Program-made: the position numbers and the translations under genes
Part shown: one piece after another, positions 123 through 42,445 of the stretch
Layout: each line of letters begins with the position of its first letter
How positions within the stretch are numbered: position 1 is the first letter of the stretch
The notes under the pieces: model-generated
Told to the model about the DNA's origin: nothing
What the model saw: only the letters and a program-made list of their open reading frames with translations
The model's database searches: none
Source of the DNA: Dehalococcoidia bacterium
GTDB taxonomy: Bacteria > Chloroflexota > Dehalococcoidia > Lucifugimonadales > UBA1123
NCBI GenBank assembly: GCA_965116415.1
Contig: OZ220693.1
Span: 2,488,806 to 2,552,805, forward strand
Direction: 5' to 3'
DNA length: 64,000 bases

Positions 123-241
123 CAAGGGTCGTAAAATGGGCTCGCATTTTGCGCCAATAGGGTGATACCTGTCTGGCAGGGTTCGCAAGAGGCGTTCGTA
201 GCCATGTCCCAACCCCTTTGACTTACGGATTCACTTTTCCC

Positions 242-1750
242 ATGTTGAGGCTCCTGGTACATACGCATATATTACCTTTGTCCATTCTATTGGCGGCTCT
301 GCTTTTCGGCGCTGCACCGACGGCTACGGCCACAGCCGACGATAGGGATGACTGGATCGTCCTCACCGTGGATAGGAACCCTCTGCTCTACAACGACAAT
401 GTTTTCGTTCTGCCGGTTGAGGGAGAACTCAATGCTGCCTCAGCGCCACTGGAGGACTACACAAGGCTTGTTTACGAGTATTTCCACGATGAATTCGACT
501 TTCTGATACTCGTCTCTAATCTCTCTGTGTATGAACTGAGGCCTGAGGAGTTTAAGCTTCCTTACGCAGGCTCTTTCTTCTCGGTAATGAACGACACAAA
601 GGGTATTGGTAAGGGGATCTATTCTCATCATAGAACGTGGGGATCAGAGGGCACGCTCCAGGGAACTATCCATCTTGGAGAAATCGAAGGCATCTCTCAA
701 AATATACTATTGCATGAACTTATGCATAGATGGGCAAACTTTATTTTTTCATTCGCGGAGATGAGCCCGAACCCCGGCCCCCACTGGGGATTCAGCAGCG
801 CGAATGGTCTATTGGGAGGATTTGACATTGCGGACCTCGTGGATCATGGCAATGGTCGATATACAGCCGGGCGGTTCGTTCCCGACACCGCCCGCGAAGG
901 CGATCATAAGCCTTACAGTCCCACTGAACTGTACTTGGCAGGTCTTATACCACCAGAGGATGTCCCTGACTTATGGGTGGCAGAAAACGGCAAATGGCTG
1001 GAGGACGGATTTCCCACCGACAGGGACTGGCTGTTTTCCGCAAGCAAGGTCAGGACACATACAATCGAAGACATTATCCAGCAGCATGGAGAGCGAATCC
1101 CCGATTCCTCGCAGTCACAACGGGACTTTCGAGCAGCGGTCATTCTGCTGATCGACGAGGACTACCCTCTCACAAAGGGACGGCTGGATCAGGTGAGCGG
1201 CAGCATAAGCTTATTCAGCCACGCCGGCGCGGACGAATTCGATGCGTACAATTTCTACGAAGCAACTGGCGGAAGAGCGACGATCACCATGAACGGCCTG
1301 TCGCAGTTTCTGAAAGAAGGCGCAGGCACCGAGGGGATGGTGGCCCTGCCGGCGTCAGGCTCTCTCGTGAGCGGCGAGACGGTTACCGCGGAGCTGGTGG
1401 ACTATGACATCCCCGTTCCTGGGAGCGTCGTGTGGCGGTGGGCGAGGTCTTCGTCCTCGAACGGGCCGTGGTCGGCGGTACAGGGCGAGACCTCGGCGAG
1501 CTACACCACGACGGACGCCGACGCGGGGAACTACCTGCAGGCGACAGTGACGTACGATGATGCGTCCGGTAAGGGACAGACGGCGAGTTGGGTGTCTGCC
1601 GGAAGAGTGAAGATCCACAGGTACGACGAGGACTCGAATGGGTCGATCGAAAGGAACGAGGTCGTCGCGGCAATCAGCGACTTCCTCTTCGGAAGCGGCA
1701 CCACAAGGGCCGAGGTCATCGAGGTGATCAGCCTCTACCTATTCGCCTAG
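242..1750 (+). CDS. secreted putative zinc metallopeptidase (HExxH) with a C-terminal single EF-hand/dockerin-like tail
   Basis: ORF 218..1750 starts at TTG. The ATG at 242 gives the signal peptide MLRLLVHTHILPLSILLAALLFGAAPTATA. HELMH lies at nt 713-727. The C-terminal loop DEDSNGSIERNE matches DxDxNGxIxxxE. The peptidase family was not assigned. Confidence 0.6.
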   Translation: MLRLLVHTHILPLSILLAALLFGAAPTATATADDRDDWIVLTVDRNPLLYNDNVFVLPVEGELNAASAPLEDYTRLVYEYFHDEFDFLILVSNLSVYELRPEEFKLPYAGSFFSVMNDTKGIGKGIYSHHRTWGSEGTLQGTIHLGEIEGISQNILLHELMHRWANFIFSFAEMSPNPGPHWGFSSANGLLGGFDIADLVDHGNGRYTAGRFVPDTAREGDHKPYSPTELYLAGLIPPEDVPDLWVAENGKWLEDGFPTDRDWLFSASKVRTHTIEDIIQQHGERIPDSSQSQRDFRAAVILLIDEDYPLTKGRLDQVSGSISLFSHAGADEFDAYNFYEATGGRATITMNGLSQFLKEGAGTEGMVALPASGSLVSGETVTAELVDYDIPVPGSVVWRWARSSSSNGPWSAVQGETSASYTTTDADAGNYLQATVTYDDASGKGQTASWVSAGRVKIHRYDEDSNGSIERNEVVAAISDFLFGSGTTRAEVIEVISLYLFA

Positions 1751-1979
1751 TCGTCAAGGAGACTTGGAAAAGCGTGCTGATCCGTCAGGCGCCCTCGGGT
1801 CCCTGACGCAGTTCCAGATGCCCAGGGGCGTTCGATTCAAACTCTGAGGAGAGGGTTGCCAGACCCGTGAGCATCAATCGTGCAAAGTGTTGCATCTGAA
1901 TAACCTCCTCGAAGCTGAGCCTTATCCTTAAACTGGCCGAGAAGGCGCTGGTTTGCAGCAATCGCCCGCGGAGGAATTC

Positions 1980-2999
1980 ATGACCAGAGTTGCTTATGTG
2001 ACAATCGACCGGCGGCGATTCACTCTATTGTGCACGTCACTGATGATCGCGTTGGCGGTTGTGGCGTGCAAGAATACAGAAACCTACTACAGCCAAGGGG
2101 TCACGCATCAGGACAAGGGGGAGTACGACCTGGCAGTCGCCGACTACACCGAAGCCATCCGCATCAACCCTGGCGATGCAGACGCCTACTTCAGCCGGGG
2201 TCTCACCCATAATTACCTGGGGGAGTACGACCTGGCGGTCGCCGACTACACCGAAGCCATCCGCATCGACCCTGAGCATGCTGCAGCCTACTTCAGCCGG
2301 GGTATTATCCATAAGGAACTGGGGGAGTACGACCTCGCGGTCACCGACTTTAGCGAAGCCATCCGCATCAACCCTGAGATTGCTGGCACCTACCTCAGCC
2401 GGGGTATCGCCCATACTTACCTGGGGGAGTATGACCTGGCAATCGCCGACTACACCGAAGCCATCCGCATCAACCCTGGTGATGCCGGCGCCTATGTCAA
2501 CCGGGGGGTTGCCCATAATTCCCTGGGGGAGTACGACCTGGCAATCGCCGACTACACCGAAGCTATCCGCATCGACCCTGAGTATGCCTACGCCCACTTC
2601 AATCGGGGGGTTGCCCATAACTACTTGGGAGAGAACGACCTGGCGATCGCCGACTACACCGAAGCCATCCGCATCAACCCTGAGCTTGCCGAGGCCTATG
2701 TCAGCCGGGGTGCTACCCATTATAAGTACCTGGGGGAGTACGACCTGGCGGTCGCCGACTTTAACGAAGCCATCCGCATCAACCCGGAGCTTGCTGAGGC
2801 CTACTATAACCGGGGCATTACCCATGAGGTCATGGGAGAGTACGACCTGGCGATCGCTGACTACACGGAAGCCATCCGTATCAACCCTGAGCATGCTGGC
2901 GCCTACCACAACCGGGGACTCATTCGCAGGGCAATGGGTGACTTAGTAGGCGCCGCGGACGATTTCGACCAGGCCAAGAAGCTGGGATTCGTGCCCTAA
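1980..2999 (+). CDS. TPR-repeat lipoprotein (8 near-identical 34-aa TPR units plus a capping unit)
   Basis: ORF 1953..2999. GGAGGA sits 5 nt before the ATG at 1980. Lipobox LAVVAC. The repeated unit is GEYDLA[VI]ADYTEAIRINPExAxAYxNRGxxH. Confidence 0.85.
   Translation: MTRVAYVTIDRRRFTLLCTSLMIALAVVACKNTETYYSQGVTHQDKGEYDLAVADYTEAIRINPGDADAYFSRGLTHNYLGEYDLAVADYTEAIRIDPEHAAAYFSRGIIHKELGEYDLAVTDFSEAIRINPEIAGTYLSRGIAHTYLGEYDLAIADYTEAIRINPGDAGAYVNRGVAHNSLGEYDLAIADYTEAIRIDPEYAYAHFNRGVAHNYLGENDLAIADYTEAIRINPELAEAYVSRGATHYKYLGEYDLAVADFNEAIRINPELAEAYYNRGITHEVMGEYDLAIADYTEAIRINPEHAGAYHNRGLIRRAMGDLVGAADDFDQAKKLGFVP
2085..2900 (+). repeat. coding tandem repeat, 102-bp period (TPR units)
   Basis: The DNA strings gagtacgacctggc and gccgactacaccgaagccatccgcatcaaccctg recur every 102 nt. 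All six frames are open here as a side effect. Confidence 0.85.
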
Positions 3000-3172
3000 A
3001 CTGCCGGTAACTGATTCGAACAAGAGCAGGAGAAGGTATACGGGCCAGAACTCCAGCGGATCTGTTCTCTTGCTTAGCACCGCTCGACCGGGGAAGACTC
3101 CAATTATGGTATGGGCAATTGCAAGCAGGATGCCCCTCCATGCCAAAGTAGCCGTTACGCGCCTGGTCGGGG

Positions 3173-4531
3173 TCAAATGCTGATGTCGAAATCTCCTCCG
3201 CCCCCGCCGCCGAAGTCTCCACCACCTCCGTCCCCGCCGATATCGCCTCCTCCATCGCCCCCGGCACCACCGCCGAAGCCTCCGAAAACAGCCGAAAAAT
3301 CCGAAAGGTCAAGGATGGACTCCGCGATCCCCTCTCCCGGATATATGTAACTCCCAAAGTAAAACCCTGTGTAGAATCCAACCTCAGTAGCTATTCTGTC
3401 TCCCCTCGACGAGGTGGCAAAAGCCGCCCCAAGTTCGGATGGCTGCTCATGGGCCATCATCTGAGTCTCCGGTTTAGACAGATGTATGAGTTTCAATGCC
3501 GCTGCGTAAGGCATCAGTGAGTTAATGGCCTCAAAGTCCTCAGCTTGGTCTTCGTCAAGAGCAGACGACTCGAGATGTGTGGCGTAGCCTCTCCACTGCA
3601 TGATCTCGGTCCGTCCCGCAGCGGTGAACTTGTTCAGCTTCGCGTTCTGCCTGCAGGCGATCCACGCCGCCCCGACGTAGGCCACGCCGACCATACTCAG
3701 ACCCACCACCCATGCCAGGCCCAGGCTTATTATCCAGAGGGCCAGGCCGGCACTCATGAGCACCGATCCAAGAATGGCCAGTACCGCAGTCCAGGTTTTC
3801 TGAGTCCTGATGGACCTTTCACTTACCAAAAGGCTCCGGTGCTCCAGGTAGTCGCGTATCTGTCGCCTTACTCCCAGCTCTGAGTCGTTGATCCGTTTCA
3901 GGAGGGCAAGACGAGTCGTCGGCTCGTGTGTAGCCTCCTCTAAGACCGTCTGTTCCCATTGGTATCTCCTGCCCAATCCCGCCGCCAGTTGATAGGTCCT
4001 GAGTTGCGCGGGTCCTTCCCCCACTGAGATGATCTCAAGTGTGCCCTTCTGCAACATCTCCAACACTATTGTGAGCGGGGTGCGGTACCCGTCGTCTCCG
4101 TCCACCAGCTCTGATACCGCGGCAGCGGGAAGGTCGCTCGGCGGATGGTCTGATTGCAGTTCTGAGTACACCTTGCGCCGCATATGCACCATGAACCATA
4201 GATACGCAATCAGGGATAGCGCGATTAAAACACCCACCACTCTGCAGAGCCAGGAAACGTGGTCGAGCCAGTTGACTCCGAACTCGTCGATGCCTGCCAG
4301 CAGCTTGAAGGCCAGCACACACGCGTGCACGATTAGATAGGCGGCAAGAGTGAAGGCCGCAAAGGGAGAAATCACGCGCACGTTGATGGCAAATGCCGCC
4401 ACCAGAATACCCACCACTATCATCCAAACTGAGGCTTCGGAAATCAGCCACAGGGTACATATACCGGTGATCAAGAGAACCAAGCCAGCGACGAACAGCG
4501 ATTCGTTTTTGTGCAGTGCCCGCATTCTCAA
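3173..4531 (-). CDS. polytopic membrane protein, DUF2207-like C-terminal region with an acidic Gly-rich tail
   Basis: Multiple hydrophobic segments. The motif QWRGY..HLE...LMPYAAAL is followed by GGFGGGAGGDGGGDIGGDGGGGDFGGGGGGDFDISI. The family call is from memory of DUF2207 architecture. Confidence 0.5.
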   Translation of the reverse strand: MRMRALHKNESLFVAGLVLLITGICTLWLISEASVWMIVVGILVAAFAINVRVISPFAAFTLAAYLIVHACVLAFKLLAGIDEFGVNWLDHVSWLCRVVGVLIALSLIAYLWFMVHMRRKVYSELQSDHPPSDLPAAAVSELVDGDDGYRTPLTIVLEMLQKGTLEIISVGEGPAQLRTYQLAAGLGRRYQWEQTVLEEATHEPTTRLALLKRINDSELGVRRQIRDYLEHRSLLVSERSIRTQKTWTAVLAILGSVLMSAGLALWIISLGLAWVVGLSMVGVAYVGAAWIACRQNAKLNKFTAAGRTEIMQWRGYATHLESSALDEDQAEDFEAINSLMPYAAALKLIHLSKPETQMMAHEQPSELGAAFATSSRGDRIATEVGFYTGFYFGSYIYPGEGIAESILDLSDFSAVFGGFGGGAGGDGGGDIGGDGGGGDFGGGGGGDFDISI

Positions 4532-5014
4532 ATCCCCCTCACTTTGGAGGCTTCAGAGTGTTCACCCCTCGATTCTGGTCGCAACTCTGACTTTGGTCAA
4601 TAGCTCCGCTCCACCCCTCCAGGGCTTGGGTGGGACTTTAGTCCACCCTGTCGCGCCGACTGAGTCAAGGTACTTCCGTACCCTGTAGATTGGGTACAAG
4701 TCGATCTGTCAGGCCGCGTCATCAATTGCCATAGTCCGATGGCAGTTCCAGTTATGAGCAGCACCTCCTGTCGGAAGAGAGTTGGTACTCGAGTTGAGAA
4801 GGTCGTCAGGACGCTTTCCGGCGGCCCCAGTGACCTCAGGAATAAGACAGATTCACGAGGAGTGATGCAAGGTGGTCTCGTGACCGGACCTGCCGATGCT
4901 GCCCAGCCGATCTCGTTGCGCCTCGTTGGGCGATACCGTACTCTACGACTCGCAGTGCAGACCAATGTGCAGCGGTGTTTGAACCCGAATCCGCAGAGGG
5001 AGATGTGAGCCAGC

Positions 5015-6010
5015 ATGGTCGAACTAGCGGGCTTTCGCCAGATTAACGATTTGGTTGCGAGGGAGTCTCGCTTCATTCACTCGCTGGAGGCGGAGATTCG
5101 CAAGTCGATTATCGGCCAGGACCGCCTGGTGGAACGTACCCTGGTTGGACTGCTGGCAGACGGTCACATCCTGCTCGAGGGTGTGCCGGGCCTTGCAAAG
5201 ACATTGCTGGTCAAGACGGTGGGACAGGCCATCCAGTCGGGGTTCTCGCGCATCCAGTTCACCCCTGATCTTCTTCCCGCCGACCTCATAGGGACGCGGG
5301 TCTACAACCCACGCTCGGGGGAGTTCAGCGTCCACAAGGGCCCGATATTTTCCAACCTGATTCTCGCCGACGAGGTGAACCGGGCGCCAGCGAAGGTGCA
5401 GAGCGCCCTGCTGGAGGCGATGCAGGAGCGACAGGTCACCATAGGGGAAGAGACATACCCGCTGCAGGCACCGTTTCTCGTGCTGGCCACCCAGAACCCG
5501 ATCGAGCAGGAGGGGACATACCCTCTGCCCGAGGCCCAGGTAGACCGGTTCATGATGAAGCTGGTCGTCGACTACCCCGAGTACTCGGAAGAGCGCGAGA
5601 TGATAGTGCGGCTCACGACGGGTTCGACTCTGGAGGTCCAGCCCGTGGTCGACTCCGAGTACATCCTGAATGCCCGTGAGATCGTGCGGCAGGTGTATGT
5701 CGACGAGAAGCTGGTGGACTATGTTCTGGACCTCGTCGTCGCAACCCGCGATCCGTCGTCGGCCGGACTGGACGATCTCGGGAACCTGATTTCGTACGGC
5801 GCTTCTCCGCGGGCGGGACTGTTCCTCATAGCAGCATCCCGGGCCCGAGCGTTCCTGAACGGGCGCGGCTACGTCACTCCGGAGGACGTCAAGCAGCTCG
5901 CGCCGGACGTCCTGAGACACCGCATCATAATGACCTTCGAGGCGGAGGCCCAGGAGATCACCCAGGTGGAGATAGTGCAACGCATCCTCGACAACCTCGA
6001 AGTTCCCTGA
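5015..6010 (+). CDS. MoxR-family AAA+ ATPase
   Basis: Walker A LLEGVPGLAKT and Walker B LILADEVNRA. Size of 331 aa is typical. It is followed by DUF58 and VWA genes. Confidence 0.9.
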   Translation: MVELAGFRQINDLVARESRFIHSLEAEIRKSIIGQDRLVERTLVGLLADGHILLEGVPGLAKTLLVKTVGQAIQSGFSRIQFTPDLLPADLIGTRVYNPRSGEFSVHKGPIFSNLILADEVNRAPAKVQSALLEAMQERQVTIGEETYPLQAPFLVLATQNPIEQEGTYPLPEAQVDRFMMKLVVDYPEYSEEREMIVRLTTGSTLEVQPVVDSEYILNAREIVRQVYVDEKLVDYVLDLVVATRDPSSAGLDDLGNLISYGASPRAGLFLIAASRARAFLNGRGYVTPEDVKQLAPDVLRHRIIMTFEAEAQEITQVEIVQRILDNLEVP

Positions 6011-6011
6011 C

Positions 6012-6899
6012 GTGCTGAACGACGAACTGCTCGCCAAGATCAGGCGCATAGACATAACTACCCGCAAGCTCGTTACGGATGGGTTCGCCGGCGAGTACCA
6101 GTCGGTATTCAAGGGTAGGGGAATGGAGTTCGACGAGGTCCGCCAGTACCACCCCGGCGACGACGTGCGCATGATCGACTGGAACGTCACCGCGCGCACC
6201 GGTGACGCGTACGTCAAGAGCTACATAGAAGAGCGGGAGCTGACGGTAATGCTCGTCGTCGACGCGAGCCGCTCAGGAGACTTCGGCACACGAGCCAGGT
6301 TCAAGCGTGAGCTGGCAGCAGAACTCGCGGCCGTGCTGGCCTTCTCTGCAACCACGAACAACGACAGGGTCGGTCTGCTGGTCTTCACGGACAGGGTGGA
6401 GCTTCTCGTACCACCCCGGAAGGGACGCAGCCACGTGCTGAGAATGGTGCGCGACCTGCTGGTTTTCGAACCGGATGGTGCTGGCACGGACGTCCGCCTT
6501 GCGCTGGAGACGGTCAGCCTGCTTCTGAAGAGACGCAGCATCGTGTTCATGATCTCCGATTTTCTTGCCGTGCCGGAATCGTACCGACAGGCCATGCTCC
6601 TGACGGCCAGGCGTCACGACCTTGCGGCGTTCGATCTGCAGGACCCGATGGAGCGCGAGATGCCGGACGTGGGGATCATACTTCTGGAGGATGCCGAGAC
6701 TGGAGACCGGCGCTGGGTCGATACTGGAAGCAGGGCCTGGAGGCGAGAGTTCTCCGATAGGGTGGTCAGGCTCGAAGAAGACAAGAAAGATGCCTTCGCC
6801 AGTGCCGGCGTCGACCGTGTGCGAGTGACGACGGATGGAGACTACGTACCTGCACTGGCTGCGTTCTTCAAGGACCGTCTCAGGAGGCAGGTCCGGTGA
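6012..6899 (+). CDS. DUF58 domain protein (MoxR-associated, VWA-like)
   Basis: The motif VRQYHPGDDVRMIDWNVTARTGDAYVKSYIEERE is typical of DUF58. The GTG start lies 1 nt after the MoxR stop. Confidence 0.85.
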   Translation: MLNDELLAKIRRIDITTRKLVTDGFAGEYQSVFKGRGMEFDEVRQYHPGDDVRMIDWNVTARTGDAYVKSYIEERELTVMLVVDASRSGDFGTRARFKRELAAELAAVLAFSATTNNDRVGLLVFTDRVELLVPPRKGRSHVLRMVRDLLVFEPDGAGTDVRLALETVSLLLKRRSIVFMISDFLAVPESYRQAMLLTARRHDLAAFDLQDPMEREMPDVGIILLEDAETGDRRWVDTGSRAWRREFSDRVVRLEEDKKDAFASAGVDRVRVTTDGDYVPALAAFFKDRLRRQVR

Positions 6900-7948
6900 G
6901 GACTAATCTGGGCGCCACTGCTTTAGGAGGCCCGCAGGCGTGGTTGTCAGTGGCCGTCGTCGCCCTGCTGACCATGTGGACGTCCGGCACTGCCCTGGCT
7001 CAGGACACCGCTCTTCCAGACATCAGGGTCGCCCTTGTCGCGGACCGCTCGGAGCTGACTGTTGGAGACCCCATCGGCCTGACGCTTGAGGTAGTCCACC
7101 CGGAGGACCATGTTGTTGTGGTGCCAAGGCTGGATACTGACTGGGGTGTGTTCCAGGTGAGGCGCCAGACGACTGCGAACGTCGCGCAGAACAGGGACGG
7201 AACGAGGACGACGAGCCAGCAGCTCGAGGTGACGTTGTTCGCGCCCGGAACGTTCGAGACGCCGGAATTGCCACTGTCTATCCGCCTTCCCGACGGGGGC
7301 GTCGAGAGGATGTCTCCCGCTCCTGTCCGATTGACCGTGGTGTCGGTGTTGTCCGGTGACGATGAGACGCTAAGGGACATCCGTGCGCCCGCGGACTTCT
7401 CCACACCACTGTGGGAACAGCTGTACTTCCGAATTCTGTTGCTCAACGTGGTGGTCGTTGTGATACTGGCCGTCGTGGGGCTGACGTTCTATCGTCGGAC
7501 CCGCCAGGGTCAGGAAACTTCCGCACCGGCGGTCCAGCACCGGTCACCGTGGGAGGTGGCATTCGATGAGTTCGACAGGATCGAGTCACTGGAGCTTCCA
7601 AGGCGTGGCCGCCTCAAGGAGTACTACGCGCTGGTGTCCCGCTCCCTTCGAGTGTACCTCCAGTCGGCGCACCTGGGAGAGGTCGGTTCTGCGGGGGCGG
7701 TCGATATGACGACCGACGAGATAGCGGCTGCGCTGAAGGGTTCTACCCTGAGCCACGAAAATACCCTCGAGGTTGTGGCCCTGCTCACGGAGGCCGACCT
7801 GGTCAAGTTCGCAAACGACACGCCGACTGAGGCTCAGGCCCGCGCTGTTCTGGCACGTGCGAGGCGAGTCGTTGAAGACACACAGACAGACATGGGGTTG
7901 CCAGCTCACCCGGACCACAGAAGCGCTGAAGGTGGGCCGCCGGCATGA
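6896..7948 (+). CDS. membrane protein, BatD-like N-terminal beta-sandwich plus DUF4381-like C-terminal region
   Basis: Signal peptide, extracytoplasmic domain, one TM (ILLLNVVVVVILAVVGLTF), then a cytoplasmic tail ending LLTEADLVKFA. GTGA overlaps the upstream stop. Confidence 0.55.
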   Translation: MRTNLGATALGGPQAWLSVAVVALLTMWTSGTALAQDTALPDIRVALVADRSELTVGDPIGLTLEVVHPEDHVVVVPRLDTDWGVFQVRRQTTANVAQNRDGTRTTSQQLEVTLFAPGTFETPELPLSIRLPDGGVERMSPAPVRLTVVSVLSGDDETLRDIRAPADFSTPLWEQLYFRILLLNVVVVVILAVVGLTFYRRTRQGQETSAPAVQHRSPWEVAFDEFDRIESLELPRRGRLKEYYALVSRSLRVYLQSAHLGEVGSAGAVDMTTDEIAAALKGSTLSHENTLEVVALLTEADLVKFANDTPTEAQARAVLARARRVVEDTQTDMGLPAHPDHRSAEGGPPA

Positions 7949-8916
7949 GCGGCCTGAGTTTCGAGTCTCCCTGGCTGCTCTTCCTGCTGGCGGCGGTGGT
8001 CGCCGTTGGAGTGCTTCCGTATCTGTGGCGACGGCGAATGGCCCCCCCAAGCATGAGGTACGCCGACAATTCTCTCGTCTTAAGCACCCATAGGTCGTTC
8101 CGCCTCCGACTTGCGCCGTTCGTTCCGGTGCTGCGCTTCCTTGCGCTTGCGCTGGTGATAGCGGCTGCTGCAAGGCCACAGGTGGCGGACGCACGCGAGG
8201 TCATCAGGGGCGAGGGCGTGGACATAGCCATCGCGCTCGATATTTCGGGCAGTATGGGGGAGACGGACTTCGCCCCACACAGGCTGGGCGCAGCGAAACA
8301 GATCATTGCAGACTTCATCGACGACAGGCGGTTTGACCGCATCGGTCTCGTCGTGTTCGCGGAGGAGGCGTTCATCCAGAGCCCGCCCACCCTGGACCAC
8401 GGTGTACTCCTCCGTCTGCTCAATGACGTCCATCTTGCCGACGAGATGAGGATAGAGGACGGGACCGCAATGGGCAGCGGCATGGCAACTGCCGCCAACA
8501 TGCTGAAGGACTCGAATGCCGATAGCAAGCTGGTCACGCTGATCACCGACGGCGTCAACAACGCCGGCGAGATCGACCCCATCACTGTTGCGACCGCTGC
8601 GGAGTCGCTCGGCATCAAGCTGTACACGATCGGCGTGGGCTCACCCGGCTCAGGGACAGTACCCGATGAGAACCCACTCGACGAGGAGATGCTCCAGGAG
8701 ATCGCAGACATCTCGAATGCACGGTTCTACCGTGCCACCGACACCGAAGGGTTGAGGAACATCTACGCGGAGATCAACGCGCTGGAGAAGTCCGAGGTGG
8801 AGGTGCTGCTGTTCACGCGCAATAGAGAGCTCCTGGGATGGCTACTGGTCCCGGCGCTGGCGCTTCTGGCGCTCGATCTCGTCCTGTCCCATTCTATTTT
8901 CAGAAGAGTCCCCTGA
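7945..8916 (+). CDS. batA: VWA domain membrane protein, BatA-like
   Basis: N-terminal TMs, MIDAS motif DIAIALDISGSM, C-terminal TM. ATGA overlaps the upstream gene. Confidence 0.8.
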   Translation: MSGLSFESPWLLFLLAAVVAVGVLPYLWRRRMAPPSMRYADNSLVLSTHRSFRLRLAPFVPVLRFLALALVIAAAARPQVADAREVIRGEGVDIAIALDISGSMGETDFAPHRLGAAKQIIADFIDDRRFDRIGLVVFAEEAFIQSPPTLDHGVLLRLLNDVHLADEMRIEDGTAMGSGMATAANMLKDSNADSKLVTLITDGVNNAGEIDPITVATAAESLGIKLYTIGVGSPGSGTVPDENPLDEEMLQEIADISNARFYRATDTEGLRNIYAEINALEKSEVEVLLFTRNRELLGWLLVPALALLALDLVLSHSIFRRVP

Positions 8917-9945
8917 GTGATCATGAGCTTTGGAGCGCCACAGTTTCTATACGCCCTGGTCGTACTCCCCGTGCTGATGGTCTTCGTGTACTGGGCACTG
9001 GCAAGACGGAGAGCGGCGCTGCGGCGCATAGGAGATGCAGACCTAGTCGAACAGATGGCCAGGACCAGCCGAACGCTTCGCATGGTCCGCCTGTCGCTGT
9101 GGTTTCTGGGTAGCGCCCTGATCGTCGTTGCCCTTGCGCGGCCCCAGTGGGGCAGCGAGGTCGAGATCGTAGAACAGAGCGGTGTGCAGATGATGGTCGC
9201 GCTGGACGTTTCACGGAGCATGCTCTCCCCGGACATGGCGCCCACACGACTTGATCGTGCCAAACTGGAGATCTCAGACTTGATGTCGCGTCTGAACGGC
9301 GACGCGGTCGGCATCGTGCTGTTCTCGGGCGCCAGCTTCATCCAGTTCCCGCTGACCTCAGATTACGATACGGCCAGGACATACCTGGCCCATGCAGGCC
9401 CGGACGCCATCACGCGCCAGGGTACGGCAATCAGCGAGGCGATCTACACGGCGTCCGCGGGCTTCAGCGATCAGCGCCTGAGCCAGAAGGTCATAGTCAT
9501 CATGACGGACGGTGAGAACCACGAGGGTGATCCGTTCACGGCCGCGCGGGAGGCGGCAGAGGAGGGCATCGTCATATACACGGTCGGTTTCGGATCTCCA
9601 GAGGGACGGCCCGTTCCGGTGTACGACGAGCAGGGCGCCGTGATCGGCTACCGCCAGGATGCACAGGGTAGTGAGATCATCTCCCGGCTCGACGAGGGTG
9701 CGCTGCAGCAGATCGCCGAGGCCGGAGGAGGCCAGTACTTCAGGGCCTCGGACAGGGGCGCAATCGCAGAACTGGTAGACCAGATCGACTCCTTCCAGAC
9801 CGAGGGCTATCAGAGCGAGCTCAGCCAGAGGAAGGTAGAACGGTTCCAGCTGTTTCTTCTCGGTGGAGCCATCGCTCTTTTGCTGGCAGAGGTGTTGAAT
9901 GACCGCCTGCTGTTGTCGCCGCGCAGACGGTGGCTGGCGGCGTAG
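8917..9945 (+). CDS. batB: VWA domain membrane protein, BatB-like
   Basis: MIDAS motif MMVALDVSRSM, flanked by N- and C-terminal TMs. An ATG alternative exists at 8923. Confidence 0.8.
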   Translation: MIMSFGAPQFLYALVVLPVLMVFVYWALARRRAALRRIGDADLVEQMARTSRTLRMVRLSLWFLGSALIVVALARPQWGSEVEIVEQSGVQMMVALDVSRSMLSPDMAPTRLDRAKLEISDLMSRLNGDAVGIVLFSGASFIQFPLTSDYDTARTYLAHAGPDAITRQGTAISEAIYTASAGFSDQRLSQKVIVIMTDGENHEGDPFTAAREAAEEGIVIYTVGFGSPEGRPVPVYDEQGAVIGYRQDAQGSEIISRLDEGALQQIAEAGGGQYFRASDRGAIAELVDQIDSFQTEGYQSELSQRKVERFQLFLLGGAIALLLAEVLNDRLLLSPRRRWLAA

Positions 9946-9953
9946 GAGCACGC

Positions 9954-10607
9954 ATGTTTCAGCACGCCACGCTGGTTGGCGCAATTGCACTCGCCCTGTC
10001 GGTCACAGCCTGTGGCACGACCCCAGCACAGGTGAACGAGTCAGGCCACGACCCGTATCTGAATGGGGACTACGCAGCGGCTCTTGATGCTTATGAAAAC
10101 GCAGGGGAGCTGGCCTCAGAGGTAGGGGAGCCGCTCTACAACGCCGGAAACGCCCTGTACCGCATGGAACAGTATGACGAGTCGTTGGACTACTACGACG
10201 AGTCACTGCGGTATGCGCGGGACGAGTCGCGCTTGCGCGGGCTGTTCAACCGGGGCAACGCGGCGTACATGATGGAGAACTATGTGGAGGCGGTCGAGGC
10301 GTATATCGAGGTGCTTAGAATCGACCCCGACGATCTCGACGCCAAGCACAACCTGGAGCTGGCTCTGAGGCAACTGCCGCCGGACAGCGACTCTCCGCCT
10401 CCGGATGAGGACGAGACCTCACCACCACCCCAGAGCGAGTCTCCACCGTCGCCGCAGGTTGAATCCCCACCGCCACAGGACGAGCCGATGACCGGAGAGC
10501 AGGCACGGCAGCTACTGGATGCGGTCGGAGAGGATGCACAGACACTGCAGGAGCGAAGAGAACAGTCCCTGGTCTCGTCCAACCCCCAGAGCGAGTTCGA
10601 CTGGTAA
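9954..10607 (+). CDS. batC: TPR lipoprotein, BatC-like, with an acidic Pro/Ser-rich C-terminus
   Basis: ORF 9930..10607. AGGAG lies 5 nt before the ATG at 9954. Lipobox LSVTAC, TPR-like helices, then PPDSDSPPPDEDETSPPPQSESPPSPQVESPPPQDEP. Confidence 0.7.
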   Translation: MFQHATLVGAIALALSVTACGTTPAQVNESGHDPYLNGDYAAALDAYENAGELASEVGEPLYNAGNALYRMEQYDESLDYYDESLRYARDESRLRGLFNRGNAAYMMENYVEAVEAYIEVLRIDPDDLDAKHNLELALRQLPPDSDSPPPDEDETSPPPQSESPPSPQVESPPPQDEPMTGEQARQLLDAVGEDAQTLQERREQSLVSSNPQSEFDW

Positions 10608-10613
10608 CTCGTA

Positions 10614-35310: not shown

Positions 35311-35324
35311 TGGTGCTCTAGGAC

Positions 35325-38368: not shown

Positions 38369-41300
38369 ATGAATCTCCGCAGATTTGCTGCCCCAAGAAC
38401 CGCCACGGGTGCAGCTGTATTGCTGGGTGCTGTCACCGCTTCATTGGTGACTGTCGGGATCATCTCCCACAGTCTGGCGACGGCTGACGACTGTTCGACT
38501 GGATCTGCCGTGTCAGACCAGACTAACAATCCCGGACTGGTATCGGACTGTGAGATCCTCCTCACAGTCCGGAACACATTGGCAGGGAGCGCAACTCTCA
38601 ACTGGTCGTCGGGAACTCCCATCCACGACTGGGAAGGAGTTACAGTCGCAGGAACACCCTTGCGGATCACGGGGCTGTCACTCGGTGGCAAGCAGCTTAG
38701 TGGTTCAATACCCTCGGAGTTGGGCCGTCTTTCCAACCTAAAATGGCTCTACCTCAACGGCAATGAGCTGAGCGGGCCGATTCCGCCGGAGCTGGGAGAC
38801 CTTTCCAACCTAATATGGCTAGACCTCGGCCACAACGACTTGAGCAGTGAGATACCTCCAGAGTTGGGCCGTCTCTCCAACCTAACCGAGCTGGCCCTCT
38901 GGGCCAACCGATTGAACGGCGCCATACCGGCTGAGTTGAGCGATCTCACCAGACTGACGTCGCTGGGCCTCAGCGAAAACGATCTAAGCAGCCCGATTCC
39001 ACCGGAGTTGGGCAGCCTCTCCAACCTGGAATTGCTAAACCTCAGCAGCAACAGTCTGACCGGCCCGATACCGGCTGAATTGGGCGGCTTCTCCAACCTG
39101 ACCGTGCTCGATCTCGGCCGCAACCGGCTGAATGGCCCGATACCCCCTGAAGTGGGCAGTCTTTCCAAATTGACTTGGCTGGACCTCAGAGACAACGAGT
39201 TGACCACAGCGATACCGGTTGAGGTGGGCGGACTCACCAACCTGAATTGGCTGGACCTCAGAGACAACAAGCTGAGCGGACCGATTCCGCCAGACCTTGG
39301 CAACCTGTCCAACTTGGAGTGGCTGTACCTCGGAGGCAACCGGCTGAGTGGCTCAATTCGAACCGAGTTGGGCAGTCTTTCCTACGTGACGTTGCTGGGA
39401 CTCGAAGGCAACCGGCTGACCGGGCCGATTCCACCGGAGTTGGGCGGACTCTCCAACCTGACGGTACTGTACCTCAATGCCAATGAATTAAGCGGACCGA
39501 TTCCGCCAGAGTTGAGCGGCCTCTCCCATCTGACTGGGCTATACCTTGGCAACAACCAGTTGACCGGCCCAATTCCTGCGGAACTGGGTGAGCTCACCAA
39601 CCTGGTGTTGCTGGACCTTTGGGTCAACCAACTAAGTGGGCCGATACCGCCGGAACTGAGCGGCCTCTCCAACCTGATTGAGCTGGACCTCAGATATAAC
39701 CTGCTGAGTGGACTGATTCCGCCGGAGCTAGCCGGCCTCCCAAATCTGGAACGGCTTTACCTCATGGGTAACCAGTTCAGCGGTTGCATCCCCGTGGGTC
39801 TGCGGTCCGTTGATGAGAACGATCTCGCTGAAACTGGCACGCCATTCTGCGACCTGTTGCTCAGCAGACTGACCATCGCACCGGGATCATTGAGCCCTGC
39901 CTTCGATTCCTACGTGAGCTACTACATCGCGGAGGTTGGAAGTGCGTCTCAGTTCACCGTGAGTCCTGTCAACGACCACAACGCCGCCATCCGATTCCTG
40001 GATGAAGACTTCGTCGAAGTGTCGGATGCGAATGACTCACTGGCGGGCTACCAGGTGAACCTCGGCGACGGTACTACTACTGTCACTGTCAGGGTCATCT
40101 CACCGGACGGATCAGGGACGCACACCTATGTCATTCAGGCCAGCCGGAAGCCGGCGACTCTAAATGCCTGTGCCACCGGCGGTGCGGTGTCCGATCCGGT
40201 TAGTGATCCTGGCCTGGTGTCCGACTGCGTTGCGCTGCTGTCGGCACACGATACGCTGGAGGGAAGTTCAATCTTCGACTGGTCAGAAGAAACTCCCATC
40301 CGAGGTTGGGATGGTGTCACGCTAGGAGGGACTCCTCAGCGCGTCACGGAGTTGCGTCTTGCCTCCAGACAGTTGAGTGGTACGGCCCCTCCGGAGTGGG
40401 GGAGCATCTCCAGCTTGACGTGGCTGTCCCTCGTTGGCAATGAGTTGAGCGGACCAGTACCACCTGAGTGGGGCAGTCTCTCCAAACTGGAGTGGCTGAA
40501 TCTAGCCGGTAATAAACTGACCGGTCCGATACCGCCCGAGCTGAGCAACCTCTCCAGCCTGACGGTCGCGTACCTCAACGGCAATGAACTAGACGGGCCG
40601 ATACCTCCAGAGTTGGGCAGTCTCCCCCACCTGGAAAGGTTGTACCTCAGCCATAACGAACTGAGCGGGGAGATACCTGCTGAGTTGGGTAATATTTCCA
40701 GCCTGGTGGGGATGAGCCTCTATGGCAACCATCTGAGTGGCCCAATACCGCCAGAGTTGGGGGACCTCTCCAACCTCCGGTGGCTGGTACTCGGCGGCAA
40801 CGAGCTGAGCGGCCGAATACCGCCGAAACTGGGGGATCTCTCCAACCTCGAGGTGCTGGACCTCAGCGGCAACGAGTTGAGTGGTCCAATGCCACCTGAG
40901 TTGGGCAGTCTCTCCAACCTGGAGGGGTCGGGCGAGTCGACCAACGTGACGGGGCTGAATCTCAGCCGTAACAGGTTGAGCGGACAGATACCACCGGAAT
41001 TGGGGAATCTCTCCAATCTGAAGGGACTGAACCTCAGAGACAACGAGTTGAGTGGTCCGGTGCCGCCGGAACTCGGCAGTCTCTCCAACCTGATACGGTT
41101 GGACCTCGACGGCAACGAACTGGATGGCACCATACCATCGGAGTGGGGCAGTCTGTCCAACCTAGAGGAGCTGAACCTCGATCGGAACCAGTTTAGCGGG
41201 GAGCTTCCAGACACGTTGACCTCCCTAACCGTGCTGGAGTGGATGGTGTTCTACAACAACCTGGGGATCTGCGCTCCTGTCAATGACGAATTCCAAGCAT

Positions 41301-42445
41301 GGCTCCAGAGCATACACACTGTGCGTGGCAGCAGCTGCGCACCGAGGGACTCGCAGGAAGACCGGGCCACGCTGGCCAAGCTTTACAACGCAACGGCAGG
41401 TAGTAATTGGGAAAATAGTTCCAACTGGCTGACCGACCGTCCCATGAGGGAGTGGTACGGCGTCACCAATGACGCCCACGGGAGAGTCATCGGACTGTAC
41501 CTTGCCCATAACCAGATGAGCGGGCCTCTACCGCTCGAGTTGGGCGGGCTCTCCAACCTGAAGTGGATGGAACTTAGAGTCAACAAGCTGAGCGGGCCTA
41601 TACCTTCCGAGATGGGAGGTCTCTCCAACCTGGAATGGCTGCTTCTCGGCGGCAACGAGCTGACCGGTCCAATACCCCCTGAGTTGGGCAGTCTCTCCAA
41701 CCTGGAGTGGATGTACCTCTACAACAACCGGTTGAGTGGAGAGATCCCGTCAGAACTTGGGAACCTGACGAATCTGGACAGTATGCACCTCTCGTGGAAC
41801 AGGCTTACCGGACAGGTGCCGGCTTCGCTGGGCAACCTTGCCAATCTGACCAGTCTGTCACTAAAGGGCAACCGTTTGGATGGACAGATACCGGCCTCGC
41901 TGAGTAGCCTCGCGAGACTGAGGTGGTTGAACCTTAGTCGAAACGATTTTACAGGCTGCATCCCGACAGGTCTGCAGGACGTGATTTCCAACGATCTTAC
42001 AAGTCTGCGCCTGCCGTTCTGCTCCATGCCGACGACAGCCATGAGCGCCGCTCCCACACGTAGCCCAGTCAGAATCGACTCGCCAATCCCTGTGACGACA
42101 TGGTTCAGCGAACCGGTCAACGGATTTACAGTCGATGATGTCATCGTGGTCAACGGCTCAGCAGCCAACTTTGTCGGTAGTGATGGCACCACGGTGTTCA
42201 CCTTTGTCGTGACGCCAACCGGCATCGGTGACGTGACAGTAGACATTCCGTCCGGAGTCGCGACCGCCGGAACAGGATACCGAAACTCACCCGCGCATCT
42301 ATCCCTCGGCATCCCATACGACGACGATCGGGACGGGGAAATCAGCCGGGACGAGTTAGTCACGGCCATCAACGATTACCTGTTCAATAACCTCCTGACC
42401 AGGGATCAGGTCATAGCTCTGATAAGTCTCTATCTCTTCGAGTGA
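38369..42445 (+). CDS. secreted 1358-aa leucine-rich-repeat protein (three Cys-capped plant-type LRR blocks, about 34 repeats; cadherin-like beta-sandwich; Ig-like domain; EF-hand/dockerin-like tail)
   Basis: Signal peptide. 24-aa LRR consensus LxxLxLxxNxLSGPIPPELGxLSNL. N-caps of type C..(18-20 aa)..C..LL...L.....NW....P...W.GV. C-caps NxF[ST]GC[IV]P...[FY]C. Tail DDDRDGEISRDE...ISLYLFE. Confidence 0.9.
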   Translation: MNLRRFAAPRTATGAAVLLGAVTASLVTVGIISHSLATADDCSTGSAVSDQTNNPGLVSDCEILLTVRNTLAGSATLNWSSGTPIHDWEGVTVAGTPLRITGLSLGGKQLSGSIPSELGRLSNLKWLYLNGNELSGPIPPELGDLSNLIWLDLGHNDLSSEIPPELGRLSNLTELALWANRLNGAIPAELSDLTRLTSLGLSENDLSSPIPPELGSLSNLELLNLSSNSLTGPIPAELGGFSNLTVLDLGRNRLNGPIPPEVGSLSKLTWLDLRDNELTTAIPVEVGGLTNLNWLDLRDNKLSGPIPPDLGNLSNLEWLYLGGNRLSGSIRTELGSLSYVTLLGLEGNRLTGPIPPELGGLSNLTVLYLNANELSGPIPPELSGLSHLTGLYLGNNQLTGPIPAELGELTNLVLLDLWVNQLSGPIPPELSGLSNLIELDLRYNLLSGLIPPELAGLPNLERLYLMGNQFSGCIPVGLRSVDENDLAETGTPFCDLLLSRLTIAPGSLSPAFDSYVSYYIAEVGSASQFTVSPVNDHNAAIRFLDEDFVEVSDANDSLAGYQVNLGDGTTTVTVRVISPDGSGTHTYVIQASRKPATLNACATGGAVSDPVSDPGLVSDCVALLSAHDTLEGSSIFDWSEETPIRGWDGVTLGGTPQRVTELRLASRQLSGTAPPEWGSISSLTWLSLVGNELSGPVPPEWGSLSKLEWLNLAGNKLTGPIPPELSNLSSLTVAYLNGNELDGPIPPELGSLPHLERLYLSHNELSGEIPAELGNISSLVGMSLYGNHLSGPIPPELGDLSNLRWLVLGGNELSGRIPPKLGDLSNLEVLDLSGNELSGPMPPELGSLSNLEGSGESTNVTGLNLSRNRLSGQIPPELGNLSNLKGLNLRDNELSGPVPPELGSLSNLIRLDLDGNELDGTIPSEWGSLSNLEELNLDRNQFSGELPDTLTSLTVLEWMVFYNNLGICAPVNDEFQAWLQSIHTVRGSSCAPRDSQEDRATLAKLYNATAGSNWENSSNWLTDRPMREWYGVTNDAHGRVIGLYLAHNQMSGPLPLELGGLSNLKWMELRVNKLSGPIPSEMGGLSNLEWLLLGGNELTGPIPPELGSLSNLEWMYLYNNRLSGEIPSELGNLTNLDSMHLSWNRLTGQVPASLGNLANLTSLSLKGNRLDGQIPASLSSLARLRWLNLSRNDFTGCIPTGLQDVISNDLTSLRLPFCSMPTTAMSAAPTRSPVRIDSPIPVTTWFSEPVNGFTVDDVIVVNGSAANFVGSDGTTVFTFVVTPTGIGDVTVDIPSGVATAGTGYRNSPAHLSLGIPYDDDRDGEISRDELVTAINDYLFNNLLTRDQVIALISLYLFE

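What the first reader, a model, noticed from the sequence alone, without database searches (positions are those of the whole stretch)
1622..1750. Two secreted proteins 37 kb apart end in the same 42-aa single EF-hand tail, ...ISLYLF[AE]-stop
The metallopeptidase-like protein ends YDEDSNGSIERNEVVAAISDFLFGSGTTRAEVIEVISLYLFA (nt 1622-1750). The LRR protein ends YDDDRDGEISRDELVTAINDYLFNNLLTRDQVIALISLYLFE (nt 42317-42445). Both contain a canonical 12-residue Ca-binding loop (D-x-D-x-[DN]-G-x-I-x-x-x-E), then a conserved helix (A-I-x-D-[FY]-L-F) and an identical terminal ISLYLF. The rest of the two proteins is unrelated. A single-loop, dockerin-like module fixed at the extreme C-terminus suggests a shared anchoring, sorting or partner-binding tag. 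No cohesin-like partner is obvious in the window.
Basis: partly seen in the sequence, partly recalled or inferred. Interest (0 to 1): 0.55.

Follow-up and report, generated by a model that had tools for sequence, protein, structure and literature searches.

The report
Shared calcium-binding tail on secreted proteins
Two unrelated secreted proteins in this window end in the same roughly 45-residue calcium-binding module, one of a large family with no database entry of its own, found so far on surface adhesin-like proteins and proteases of marine, probably sponge-associated, Dehalococcoidia bacteria, where it most likely joins these proteins to each other or to the cell surface.

Summary
Both ORFs (218-1750 and 38369-42445) end in a 42-aa tail that is 23/41 identical (BLASTP E=2e-10), and nothing else in the two proteins is similar.

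The tail belongs to a large domain family that Pfam and NCBIfam do not curate. A profile search found 1033 cluster representatives at E<=1e-3. All 32 genomic loci recovered are Dehalococcoidia MAGs. Carriers are proteins with signal peptides: LRR, cadherin, fn3/Ig and S8 subtilase proteins.

The Ca loop is a canonical EF-hand loop (E at position 12 in 100% of modules). The module is not a lone EF-hand. It is an internal duplication of an 18-aa loop-helix unit whose second copy has lost the Ca ligands, so it has dockerin-like topology with a single Ca site.

It is not a strict C-terminal tag. About a fifth of the best-scoring family members carry it just after the signal peptide or between domains, followed by Pro/Thr linkers, and some proteins have 2-4 copies.

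No cohesin, sortase or conserved neighbouring gene was found.

Best reading: an autonomous extracellular Ca-dependent association module. AlphaFold predicts that two tandem modules pack on each other. Function is inferred, not shown. I rate it a new variant of a known kind, of moderate interest.

The parts
218..1750 (+). Carrier 1: 510-aa secreted protein of unknown family. It has a hydrophobic N-terminal signal-like segment, a HELMH motif, a sub-threshold Ig-like region and the tail.
   Evidence: ORF. No Pfam or NCBIfam family above cut-off. No PDB relative. P0028 is a 37%-identical homologue of the central part and carries three tail modules.
1607..1747 (+). Tail module 1: lead-in VKIHR, EF-hand loop, helix A (EVVAAISDFLF), short turn (GSGTT), helix B (RAEVIEVISLYLF), then A and the stop codon.
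   Evidence: Translation. HMM hit of 75.1 bits ending 1 residue before the stop. Sub-threshold EF-hand_6/EF-hand_1 matches.
1625..1660 (+). 12-residue Ca-binding loop DEDSNGSIERNE (EF-hand positions 1-12).
   Evidence: Regex hit. Family conservation of the ligand positions.
38369..42445 (+). Carrier 2: 1358-aa secreted LRR protein with three plant-type LRR blocks, a cadherin-like beta-sandwich, a Big_12 Ig-like domain and the tail.
   Evidence: ORF. Pfam LRR_1 (E=1.6e-101), Cadherin-like at residues 499-593 and Big_12 at 1234-1302.
42068..42274 (+). Big_12 Ig-like domain just upstream of the tail. The pair 'Big_12 + ...LSLGIPYDDD tail' recurs as a cassette at the C-terminus or just after the signal peptide in other family members.
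   Evidence: residues 1234-1302. Same cassette in L005, L016, L018 and L020 and, at the N-terminus, in P0050, P0057, P0058 and P0117.
42302..42442 (+). Tail module 2: lead-in SLGIP, EF-hand loop, helix A (ELVTAINDYLF), turn (NNLLT), helix B (RDQVIALISLYLF), then E and the stop codon.
   Evidence: Translation. HMM hit of 83.4 bits ending 1 residue before the stop. AlphaFold model with pLDDT 83.6: coil and loop, then helices at residues 20-32 and 38-50.
42320..42355 (+). 12-residue Ca-binding loop DDDRDGEISRDE.
   Evidence: Regex hit. EF-hand_6 match at E=2.6e-4, 20.9 bits, below the cut-off of 25.

Best explanation
The tail is an autonomous extracellular Ca2+-binding association module of about 45 residues. 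It arose by duplication of an EF-hand-type 'loop + exiting helix' unit. The first copy keeps a canonical 12-residue loop (D1, D/N3, D/N/S5, G6, I8, E12). The second copy keeps only the back half of the loop (I-[TS]-[RK]-x-[EQD]) and the helix. The result is one Ca site at the head of an antiparallel helical hairpin, and each helix ends in Y-L-F-G. Inferred mechanism: at seawater or host Ca2+ levels the loop is occupied and holds the hairpin rigid. The hairpin's conserved hydrophobic and aromatic face is too large to be buried in a two-helix unit, so it packs against a second copy of the module. This pairing would occur in cis in proteins with 2-4 copies and in trans between single-tail proteins, as lone EF-hands usually pair. 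It may also pack against an unidentified surface receptor. Either way, the cell's secreted LRR and cadherin adhesin-like proteins and proteases would be clustered or tethered through one common tail. These bacteria are reported to lack peptidoglycan, so wall-based anchoring would not be available. Shown here: the family, the domain's mobility, the canonical loop, the internal repeat and the secreted carriers. Inferred: Ca binding, pairing and tethering.
For: - Family size: a profile search of 1.84 billion representatives found 1033 proteins at E<=1e-3 and 160 at E<=1e-10.
- Taxonomy: all 32 loci from species-representative genomes are Dehalococcoidia MAGs.
- Position in those loci: all 49 HMM hits in the loci and the window lie within 0-4 residues of the stop, with one exception at 12. 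Carrier genes often sit in tandem arrays (four in L028, three in L026).
- Secretion: 21 of 27 complete carriers have a signal-peptide-like N-terminus.
- Carrier types: S8 subtilases, LRR, cadherin, fn3 and Big_12 proteins.
- Domain behaviour: full modules also occur right after signal peptides or internally, followed by Pro/Thr linkers, and in 2-4 tandem copies. A homologue of window protein 1 has three modules in place of 'Ig + one module'.
- Ca loop: D 97%, D/N 96%, N/D/S 97%, G 92%, I 93%, E 100% across 175 modules. The profile matches EF-hand loops of ALG-2, hippocalcin and calmodulin in the PDB. 68 of 71 members match Pfam EF-hand_6 at E<=1.
- Internal repeat: offset 18 scores +27.5 while every other offset scores below 0; 0 of 100,000 permutations reach it.
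- Fold: AlphaFold predicts a loop plus helical hairpin at pLDDT 83.6.
- Compact, oxidised fold: 5 of 175 modules have a Cys in the last helix and all 5 also have a Cys three residues before the loop; none has one Cys without the other.
- Pairing: a natural double module is predicted at pLDDT 81.9 and pTM 0.69 despite a disordered linker. By my estimate, two independent 50-residue domains would give about 0.4.
- Context: SAR202 genomes lack peptidoglycan synthesis genes (PMC6306507). DxDxDG motifs are strongly biased to secreted or surface proteins (PMC3123361).
Against: - There is no experimental evidence of any kind.
- The pairing inference rests on one AlphaFold model, and only its pTM was available. 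I could not inspect contacts or PAE. The five models ranged from pLDDT 69 to 82, and the first module of that model had almost no alignment depth.
- Foldseek found no significant structural neighbour for either model (best E=0.16).
- Trans pairing alone would join proteins to each other but would not anchor them to the cell unless one partner is membrane-bound. No such partner was identified.
- The taxonomic restriction to Dehalococcoidia may be inflated, because the genome scan used patterns taken from the closest subfamily.
- Peptidoglycan absence and sponge association are taken from the literature on SAR202. Neither was shown for this window's organism.
Confidence: 0.4

Rival explanations
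1. A true dockerin analogue. The tail docks in a Ca-dependent way onto a dedicated, cohesin-like receptor domain of a membrane- or S-layer-anchored scaffold protein encoded elsewhere in the genome, so all carriers are displayed on one scaffold.
For: - The topology is dockerin-like: two loop-helix repeats forming an antiparallel helix pair.
- Its placement matches dockerin habits: mostly C-terminal, sometimes N-terminal or multiple, often after a linker.
- One genome has many unrelated carriers: at least 6 loci in OY762210.1 and at least 7 in DAOUHG01.
- [ST]-[RK] at loop positions 9-10 and Asn at position 18 are conserved in both repeats. This recalls the duplicated cohesin-contact residues of type I dockerins (my own knowledge).
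- Dockerins make up 6 of the 22 weak Foldseek hits for the single module, with TM about 0.5, and the double dockerin 8x39 is the top hit for the double module.
Against: - No member matches Pfam Dockerin_1 even at E<=1.
- The Foldseek hits are not significant (E>=0.16).
- No cohesin domain was found in the window or among the called genes of seven related loci.
- No non-carrier gene family is conserved next to carriers in the 32 loci, apart from generic SDR and luciferase-like enzymes.
- Only one Ca site is present, and position 12 is Glu, not the Asp typical of dockerins.
Confidence: 0.25
2. A purely structural Ca2+-stabilised end-cap. The module binds Ca2+ to stabilise itself and the neighbouring Ig-like domain against proteolysis or unfolding outside the cell, and has no partner.
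For: - In one large subfamily the tail always follows a Big_12 Ig-like domain as a fixed cassette.
- Many extracellular DxDxDG sites are structural (PMC3123361).
- No partner was found.
Against: - A second large subfamily (lead-in DPLxxRYDANGNG...) has no Ig domain before the tail and follows LRR caps, cadherin repeats or signal peptides directly.
- Modules are often separated from the rest of the protein by Pro/Thr or Gly linkers, and occur in 2-4 tandem copies. That does not fit a cap for a neighbouring domain.
- The two Y-L-F-G helix ends are strongly conserved and hydrophobic, more than a self-contained two-helix unit seems able to bury (my inference).
Confidence: 0.2
3. A C-terminal sorting or secretion signal, either recognised and removed by a sortase-, exosortase- or archaeosortase-type enzyme or used by an ABC/type I exporter.
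For: - The tail is at the extreme C-terminus in both window proteins and in all 49 hits in the Dehalococcoidia loci and the window.
- An HlyD-like protein and a MacB/FtsX-like permease lie at 32857-36599, just upstream of the LRR gene.
Against: - The tail has no transmembrane helix or basic tail, which the sequence shows directly.
- No NCBIfam sorting-domain model matches.
- No sortase or exosortase gene is in the window.
- Carriers already have Sec-type N-terminal signal peptides.
- About a fifth of the best family members carry the module at the N-terminus, internally or in tandem.
- No exporter is conserved next to carriers in the 32 loci.
Confidence: 0.05

Closest known systems
Type I dockerin module (Pfam PF00404 Dockerin_1) of cellulosomal and non-cellulosomal proteins
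   Same: It is a small extracellular module built from a tandem duplication of a 'Ca loop + helix' unit that gives an antiparallel helix pair. It is usually C-terminal, sometimes N-terminal or multiple. It is shared by many otherwise unrelated secreted proteins of one organism.
   Different: Only the first repeat keeps the Ca ligands, so there is one Ca site rather than two. The repeat period is 18 residues and the second loop is cut down to a 3-9 residue turn, so the module is about 45 aa rather than about 60-70. Loop position 12 is Glu, as in EF-hands, not Asp. There is no Dockerin_1 HMM match, structural similarity is not significant, and no cohesin was found.
Canonical EF-hand (Pfam EF-hand_1 PF00036, EF-hand_6 PF13405; e.g. 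ALG-2, calmodulin)
   Same: The 12-residue loop is canonical at every ligand position, with Gly6, Ile8 and an invariant Glu12. The profile aligns to the loop and exiting helix of solved EF-hand proteins. In the DPLxxRYD subfamily AlphaFold also predicts a short entering helix.
   Different: It is extracellular, on Sec-exported multidomain proteins. There is one functional loop per module rather than a pair, and the partner 'hand' is a degenerate copy without ligands. In the window's LRR tail the lead-in is predicted as coil rather than an entering helix. The window tails score below the Pfam gathering cut-offs (20.9 and 14.8 bits against 25).
'Single-handed' bacterial EF-hand-like and DxDxDG domains (e.g. 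the Excalibur domain; Rigden et al. 2003, cited in PMC3123361)
   Same: These are bacterial extracellular proteins with a lone DxDxDG-type Ca loop. The general rule that such motifs are biased to secreted or surface proteins also applies here.
   Different: Excalibur has a conserved Cys-containing DxDxDGxxCE loop in a different scaffold (my own knowledge, not tested here). This module has a full 12-residue EF loop followed by the duplicated helix, and a distinctive ...[IL]NLYLFG end.
Wall- or S-layer-binding anchoring repeats (SLH, LysM, and the pseudomurein-binding repeat PMBR PF09373)
   Same: They are short modules placed at a terminus of secreted proteins, in 1-4 copies and separated from the functional domains by linkers. 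They tether diverse proteins to the cell surface.
   Different: There is no sequence relationship. The only matches are chance-level: PMBR in 5 of 71 members (best E=0.0019) and SLH in 1 of 71. Those repeats bind glycan polymers and do not depend on Ca or an EF-hand.

Membership tests
Dockerin (Pfam PF00404 Dockerin_1) | Sequence match to the Dockerin_1 profile | tested here: not met
   None of 71 diverse module sequences, including both window tails, matches Dockerin_1 at E<=1, or at E<=10 for the two window tails.
Dockerin (Pfam PF00404 Dockerin_1) | Two tandem repeats of a loop-helix segment | tested here: met
   Profile self-comparison: offset 18 scores +27.5 and every other offset scores below 0; z=5.6; 0 of 100,000 column permutations reach it. 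The consensus I-[SE]-[RK]-x-E-V-I-x-A-I-N-D-Y-L-F aligns with I-[TS]-[RK]-x-[EQ]-V-I-x-[VL]-I-N-L-Y-L-F.
Dockerin (Pfam PF00404 Dockerin_1) | Two Ca2+-binding loops, one per repeat | tested here: not met
   Only the first repeat has D-x-[DN]-x-[DNS]-G. The second has a variable 3-9 residue turn in its place.
Dockerin (Pfam PF00404 Dockerin_1) | Structural similarity to solved dockerins | tested here: inconclusive
Dockerin (Pfam PF00404 Dockerin_1) | A cohesin partner in the same organism | tested here: inconclusive
   There is no Cohesin Pfam hit on 42 window ORFs or among the called genes of L001, L002 and L035-L039. No neighbouring gene is conserved in the 32 loci. Whole genomes could not be searched.
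EF-hand (Pfam PF00036, PF13405) | Canonical 12-residue loop with ligands at positions 1, 3, 5 and 12, plus Gly6 and a hydrophobic residue at 8 | tested here: met
   D 97%, D/N 96%, N/D/S 97%, G 92%, I 93%, E 100% over 175 modules. Both window loops fit.
EF-hand (Pfam PF00036, PF13405) | Score above the Pfam gathering cut-off | tested here: not met
   The window tails score 20.9 and 14.8 bits on EF-hand_6 against a cut-off of 25. 68 of 71 family members match at E<=1, with a best E of 7.8e-7. L023 just reaches EF-hand_1 at 25.4 bits.
EF-hand (Pfam PF00036, PF13405) | Helix-loop-helix with an entering helix, occurring as a pair of hands | tested here: inconclusive
   The window LRR tail model has coil before the loop. 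The DPLxxRYD subfamily model has a short entering helix. The second 'hand' is degenerate. Pairing of two modules is suggested only by pTM 0.69.
EF-hand (Pfam PF00036, PF13405) | Actual Ca2+ binding | not testable with these tools
   Needs ITC, Tb3+ luminescence or a structure.
C-terminal sorting signals (LPXTG, PEP-CTERM, PGF-CTERM and similar NCBIfam models) | Signature motif, then a transmembrane helix, then a basic tail at the C-terminus, with a cognate sortase, exosortase or archaeosortase | tested here: not met
   No NCBIfam model matches the tails at E<=10. The last 20 residues contain charged residues and no stretch long enough to span a membrane. No sortase-type gene is in the window. 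The module also occurs at the N-terminus and internally.

The most novel reading that the evidence does not exclude
The tail is a cohesin-independent 'half-dockerin'. In this reading it is a one-calcium module that assembles the secreted adhesin-like proteins (LRR, cadherin) and proteases of peptidoglycan-less SAR202-type Dehalococcoidia into a multi-protein surface complex, through Ca-dependent pairing of tails in trans. That would be a previously undescribed mode of cell-surface display, and it would mark out the host-facing 'surfaceome' of a dominant sponge symbiont lineage.
Probability: 0.2. Interest if true: 0.75.

Novelty: new variant of a known kind. Interest (0 to 1): 0.5.

Why it matters
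SAR202-type Dehalococcoidia are among the most abundant bacteria in the deep ocean and in high-microbial-abundance sponges. They are uncultured and reported to lack peptidoglycan, and how they hold proteins at their surface is not known to me.

This tail marks a coherent set of secreted proteins per genome: LRR and cadherin 'eukaryote-like' proteins and subtilases. These are the protein types proposed to mediate contact between symbiont and host.

An HMM of the tail would be a cheap way to pick out this set of secreted proteins in MAGs. It also defines a small, easily expressed, probably Ca-switchable module that could be tested for self-association or a receptor, and that might serve as a compact protein-assembly tag. 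It is also a clear case of an EF-hand/dockerin-type duplication in which one Ca site has been lost.

Tried and rejected
- A word-indexed homologue search with the 51-aa tail gave only 2 hits. With a 71-sequence profile it returned only short ORFs of 44-90 aa. These are mostly C-terminal fragments of broken or mis-started genes, so they served only as alignment depth.
- Cluster look-ups gave no names or taxa.
- NCBIfam has no model for the tail.
I used the natural double module of P0010 instead, but only pTM and pLDDT are returned, so the interface could not be inspected.
- Neighbourhood clustering over 32 loci found no conserved candidate partner, only generic SDR and luciferase-like enzymes and more LRR genes.
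- Full-text searches for the motif strings (AINDYLF, INLYLFG, ISLYLF) and for EF-hand or dockerin together with Dehalococcoidia, Chloroflexi or sponge found no description of this module.
- The weak Pfam hits to PMBR and SLH were considered as a hint of wall binding and rejected as chance-level.
- The recent-duplication idea was rejected because the two tails are only 64% identical at the nucleotide level.
Full report
**Observation**

- They end the ORFs 218-1750 (510 aa) and 38369-42445 (1358 aa).
- BLASTP between the two proteins finds a single significant segment, the tail: 23/41 identical, 32/41 similar, E=2e-10. Everything else has E>=1.
- No other 42-mer in the six-frame translation of the window shares more than 12 residues with the LRR tail.
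- A regex scan and an HMM scan both find exactly two copies in the window.
- The two tails are 64% identical at the DNA level, so this is an old shared module rather than a recent copy.
- The second protein is an LRR protein with a cadherin-like and a Big_12 Ig-like domain.
- The first protein has no recognisable family. 'Metallopeptidase-like' rests only on a HELMH motif.

**A large family with no curated model**

Pfam gives only sub-threshold EF-hand matches on the tails, and NCBIfam gives nothing.

A four-sequence profile searched exhaustively against 1.84 billion cluster representatives found 1033 proteins at E<=1e-3 and 160 at E<=1e-10.

A pattern scan of one genome per GTDB species returned 32 loci. 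Every one is from a MAG labelled Dehalococcoidia, with up to 6-7 loci per genome. The patterns came from the closest subfamily, so this taxonomic restriction is a lower bound on breadth, not proof of exclusivity.

In these loci and the window, all 49 HMM hits end 0-4 residues before the stop codon, with one exception at 12. Carrier genes are often arrayed head-to-tail: four in L028 and three in L026.

The only source annotation seen anywhere was JGI's 'Ca2+-binding EF-hand superfamily protein' on two fragments. Full-text searches for the motif strings and for EF-hand or dockerin together with Dehalococcoidia, Chloroflexi or sponge found no description of the module.

**Who carries it**

Of 27 carriers with a complete N-terminus, 21 begin with a signal-peptide-like hydrophobic segment, for example MKRYVVGLIAVLVVAGFW...AQS. 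The remaining six look mis-started or truncated.

Their domains are S8 subtilase with a P-domain, LRR, cadherin, fn3, and Big_12, Big_13 or cadherin-like Ig folds. All are typical extracellular adhesin-like or protease architectures.

**Not a strict C-terminal tag**

Among the 151 best representatives, 115 have the module at the very end. About 25-30 have a complete module elsewhere:
- Directly after the signal peptide and followed by a Pro/Thr-rich linker and then the functional domains: P0084, P0104, P0144, P0143, P0151, and the 'Big_12 + tail' cassette in P0050, P0057, P0058 and P0117.
- Between domains: P0035, P0097, P0125, P0136.
- In tandem: two copies in P0009, P0010 and P0041; three in P0028 and P0083; four in P0111.

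P0028 is a 37%-identical homologue of window protein 1 that carries three modules where the window protein has an Ig-like region plus one.

This is how a mobile, independently folding domain behaves. It argues against a processed sorting or secretion signal. So do the Sec signal peptides, the absence of a C-terminal transmembrane helix and basic tail, the lack of any NCBIfam sorting-domain match, and the lack of sortase-type genes in the window.

**Anatomy**

Across 175 distinct modules the loop is a textbook EF-hand loop: position 1 D 97%, position 3 D/N 96%, position 5 N/D/S 97%, Gly6 92%, Ile8 93%, Glu12 100%. The family profile aligns to the loop and exiting helix of solved EF-hand proteins such as ALG-2, hippocalcin and calmodulin. 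68 of 71 members hit Pfam EF-hand_6 at E<=1, and none hits Dockerin_1.

- Profile columns 15-29 (I-[SE]-[RK]-x-E-V-I-x-A-I-N-D-Y-L-F) and 33-47 (I-[TS]-[RK]-x-[EQD]-V-I-x-[VL]-I-N-L-Y-L-F) align at an offset of 18 with a score of +27.5.
- Every other offset scores below zero, and none of 100,000 column permutations reaches the observed score.
- In the window tails the repeat gives 7/15 identities (SIERNEVVAAISDFLF against TTRAEVIEVISLYLF, read from the sequence) and 6/15 (ISRDELVTAINDYLF against LTRDQVIALISLYLF).

The module is therefore a duplicated 'loop + helix' unit, as in dockerins. The second copy has replaced the D-x-D-x-D-G half of its loop with a 3-9 residue turn.

AlphaFold, given a 122-row alignment, predicts the LRR tail at pLDDT 83.6 as coil and loop followed by helices at residues 20-32 and 38-50.

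Five of the 175 modules have a Cys in the last helix (...NCYLF). All five also have a Cys three residues before the loop Tyr, and no module has one Cys without the other. This is best read as a disulfide tying the lead-in to the last helix, which fits a compact fold in an oxidising, extracellular setting.

**Search for a partner**
- The window contains no cohesin, sortase, exosortase or S-layer domain.
- Called genes in seven related metagenomic loci show none either.
- All-against-all clustering of non-carrier ORFs in the 32 loci finds only generic SDR and luciferase-like enzymes and more LRR genes.
- Foldseek against the PDB gives no significant neighbour. Dockerins and EF-hand proteins dominate the weak hits: TM about 0.5 for 2ccl_B, 4dh2_D and 2vn6_B, and the double dockerin 8x39 is the top hit for the double module at E=0.16.

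**Pairing**

The result was pLDDT 81.9 and pTM 0.69, with a disordered Gly linker at residues 58-64 and a short entering helix before each loop.

By my estimate, two independent 50-residue domains on a flexible linker would give a pTM near 0.4. The model therefore implies a defined packing of one module on the other. Three caveats apply:
- I could not see contacts or PAE.
- The five models varied from pLDDT 69 to 82.
- The first module had almost no alignment depth.

**Mechanism, with what is shown and what is inferred**

Shown:
- a mobile extracellular domain family
- a canonical EF loop
- an internal duplication with loss of one Ca site
- carriers that are secreted adhesin-like proteins and proteases
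- no adjacent partner gene

Inferred:
- Ca2+ occupies the loop and holds the hairpin rigid.
- The hydrophobic Y-L-F-G helix ends are too extensive for a two-helix unit to bury, so they form an association surface.
- The most likely partner is another copy of the module, as is usual for unpaired EF-hands. That would be in cis in multi-copy proteins and in trans otherwise. The main alternative is an unidentified cohesin-like surface receptor.

Either way, the tail would cluster or tether the secreted proteins. SAR202 genomes are reported to lack peptidoglycan biosynthesis genes (PMC6306507), which would rule out wall-based anchoring and give a reason for such a module.

**Context of the window**

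The window encodes TPR, ankyrin and LRR proteins, a luciferase-family monooxygenase and an SDR.
- The repeat proteins are the 'eukaryote-like protein' set described for sponge symbionts (PMC6306507).
- The two enzyme families are among those highlighted for SAR202 (PMC8826442).
- One of the 32 loci is from a 'Langseth' MAG. Langseth Ridge metagenomes came from Geodia parva sponges dominated by SAR202 (PMC8826442).

Assigning the window to a sponge-associated SAR202-type Dehalococcoidia is therefore plausible but not proven.

**Comparison and verdict**

The module works most like a dockerin. It is a duplicated Ca loop-helix module, usually at a protein terminus, shared by many unrelated secreted proteins of one organism. 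It fails dockerin membership on the HMM match, on the second Ca site and, so far, on a cohesin partner.

Its loop is a canonical EF-hand loop. The module is nevertheless extracellular, has a single functional loop and scores below the Pfam thresholds.

I rate it a new variant of a known kind. It is a real, widespread domain that is not described in the databases and literature I could search, and its function is plausible but untested. Interest is moderate at 0.5. It would be higher if the tail proved to be a cohesin-independent surface-assembly system in a major uncultured symbiont lineage.

Noticed in passing
window 5015-12793 (+): A Bat-like (Bacteroides aerotolerance-type) operon: MoxR AAA_3 ATPase, a DUF58/VWA protein, an ORF with no family, two VWA-BatA proteins, a TPR protein, a BatD-like protein and another TPR protein.
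   Followed up: partly
window 12862-14334 (-), 14386-15054 (-), 15102-22505 (-): Two ankyrin-repeat proteins sit next to a 2467-aa S8 subtilase with LRR, 7 CARDB and 4 fn3 domains. This giant protease has no tail, although S8-LRR proteins of other Dehalococcoidia (L005, L024) end in it.
   Followed up: partly
window 1953-2999 (+): A TPR protein directly downstream of carrier 1, built from about 8 nearly identical 34-aa repeats (GEYDLA[VI]ADYTEAIRI[ND]P...), with a hydrophobic N-terminal segment.
   Followed up: no
window 3173-4531 (-): A DUF2207_C-type membrane protein ending in a long Gly/Asp-rich tail (GGGAGGDGGGDIGGDGGGGDFGGGGGGDFDISI).
   Followed up: no
window 32857-36599 (+): An 817-aa HlyD-like membrane-fusion protein and a MacB/FtsX-type permease lie about 1.8 kb upstream of the LRR carrier. 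No such pair is conserved next to carriers in the other loci.
   Followed up: partly
window 53455-60467: A possible defence or restriction island: an HTH protein, a DNA-methylase-like protein (54127-55455), an 861-aa HATPase_c_3 protein (55319-57904) and a Uma2 endonuclease (59775-60467). There is also an IS66-type transposase remnant at 45239-46285 and a NERD-domain protein at 43380-44462.
   Followed up: no
L035-L038, locus coordinates 2600-6174: Four copies, from two samples, of an LRR gene that stops at ...LPRCDS*. After an identical 137-nt spacer comes a detached 57-aa tail ORF in another frame. The copies sit among transposase, resolvase and PIN genes. This is a decayed or split tail inside a repeated element.
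   Followed up: partly
L028 3-9848; L026 661-9303: Tail-bearing LRR genes occur as head-to-tail arrays of three or four paralogues on one strand in some Dehalococcoidia genomes.
   Followed up: partly
family alignment, profile column 44 and the position 3 residues before the loop Tyr (P0041, P0080, P0106, P0111): A perfectly co-occurring Cys pair (5 of 175 modules have both, none has one alone) suggests a disulfide between the lead-in and the last helix.
   Followed up: yes
P0028, P0083 (family members outside the window): P0028, a homologue of window protein 1's central region, carries three tandem tail modules instead of an Ig-like region plus one; P0083 ends in the same triple. The number of copies therefore varies between related proteins.
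   Followed up: partly
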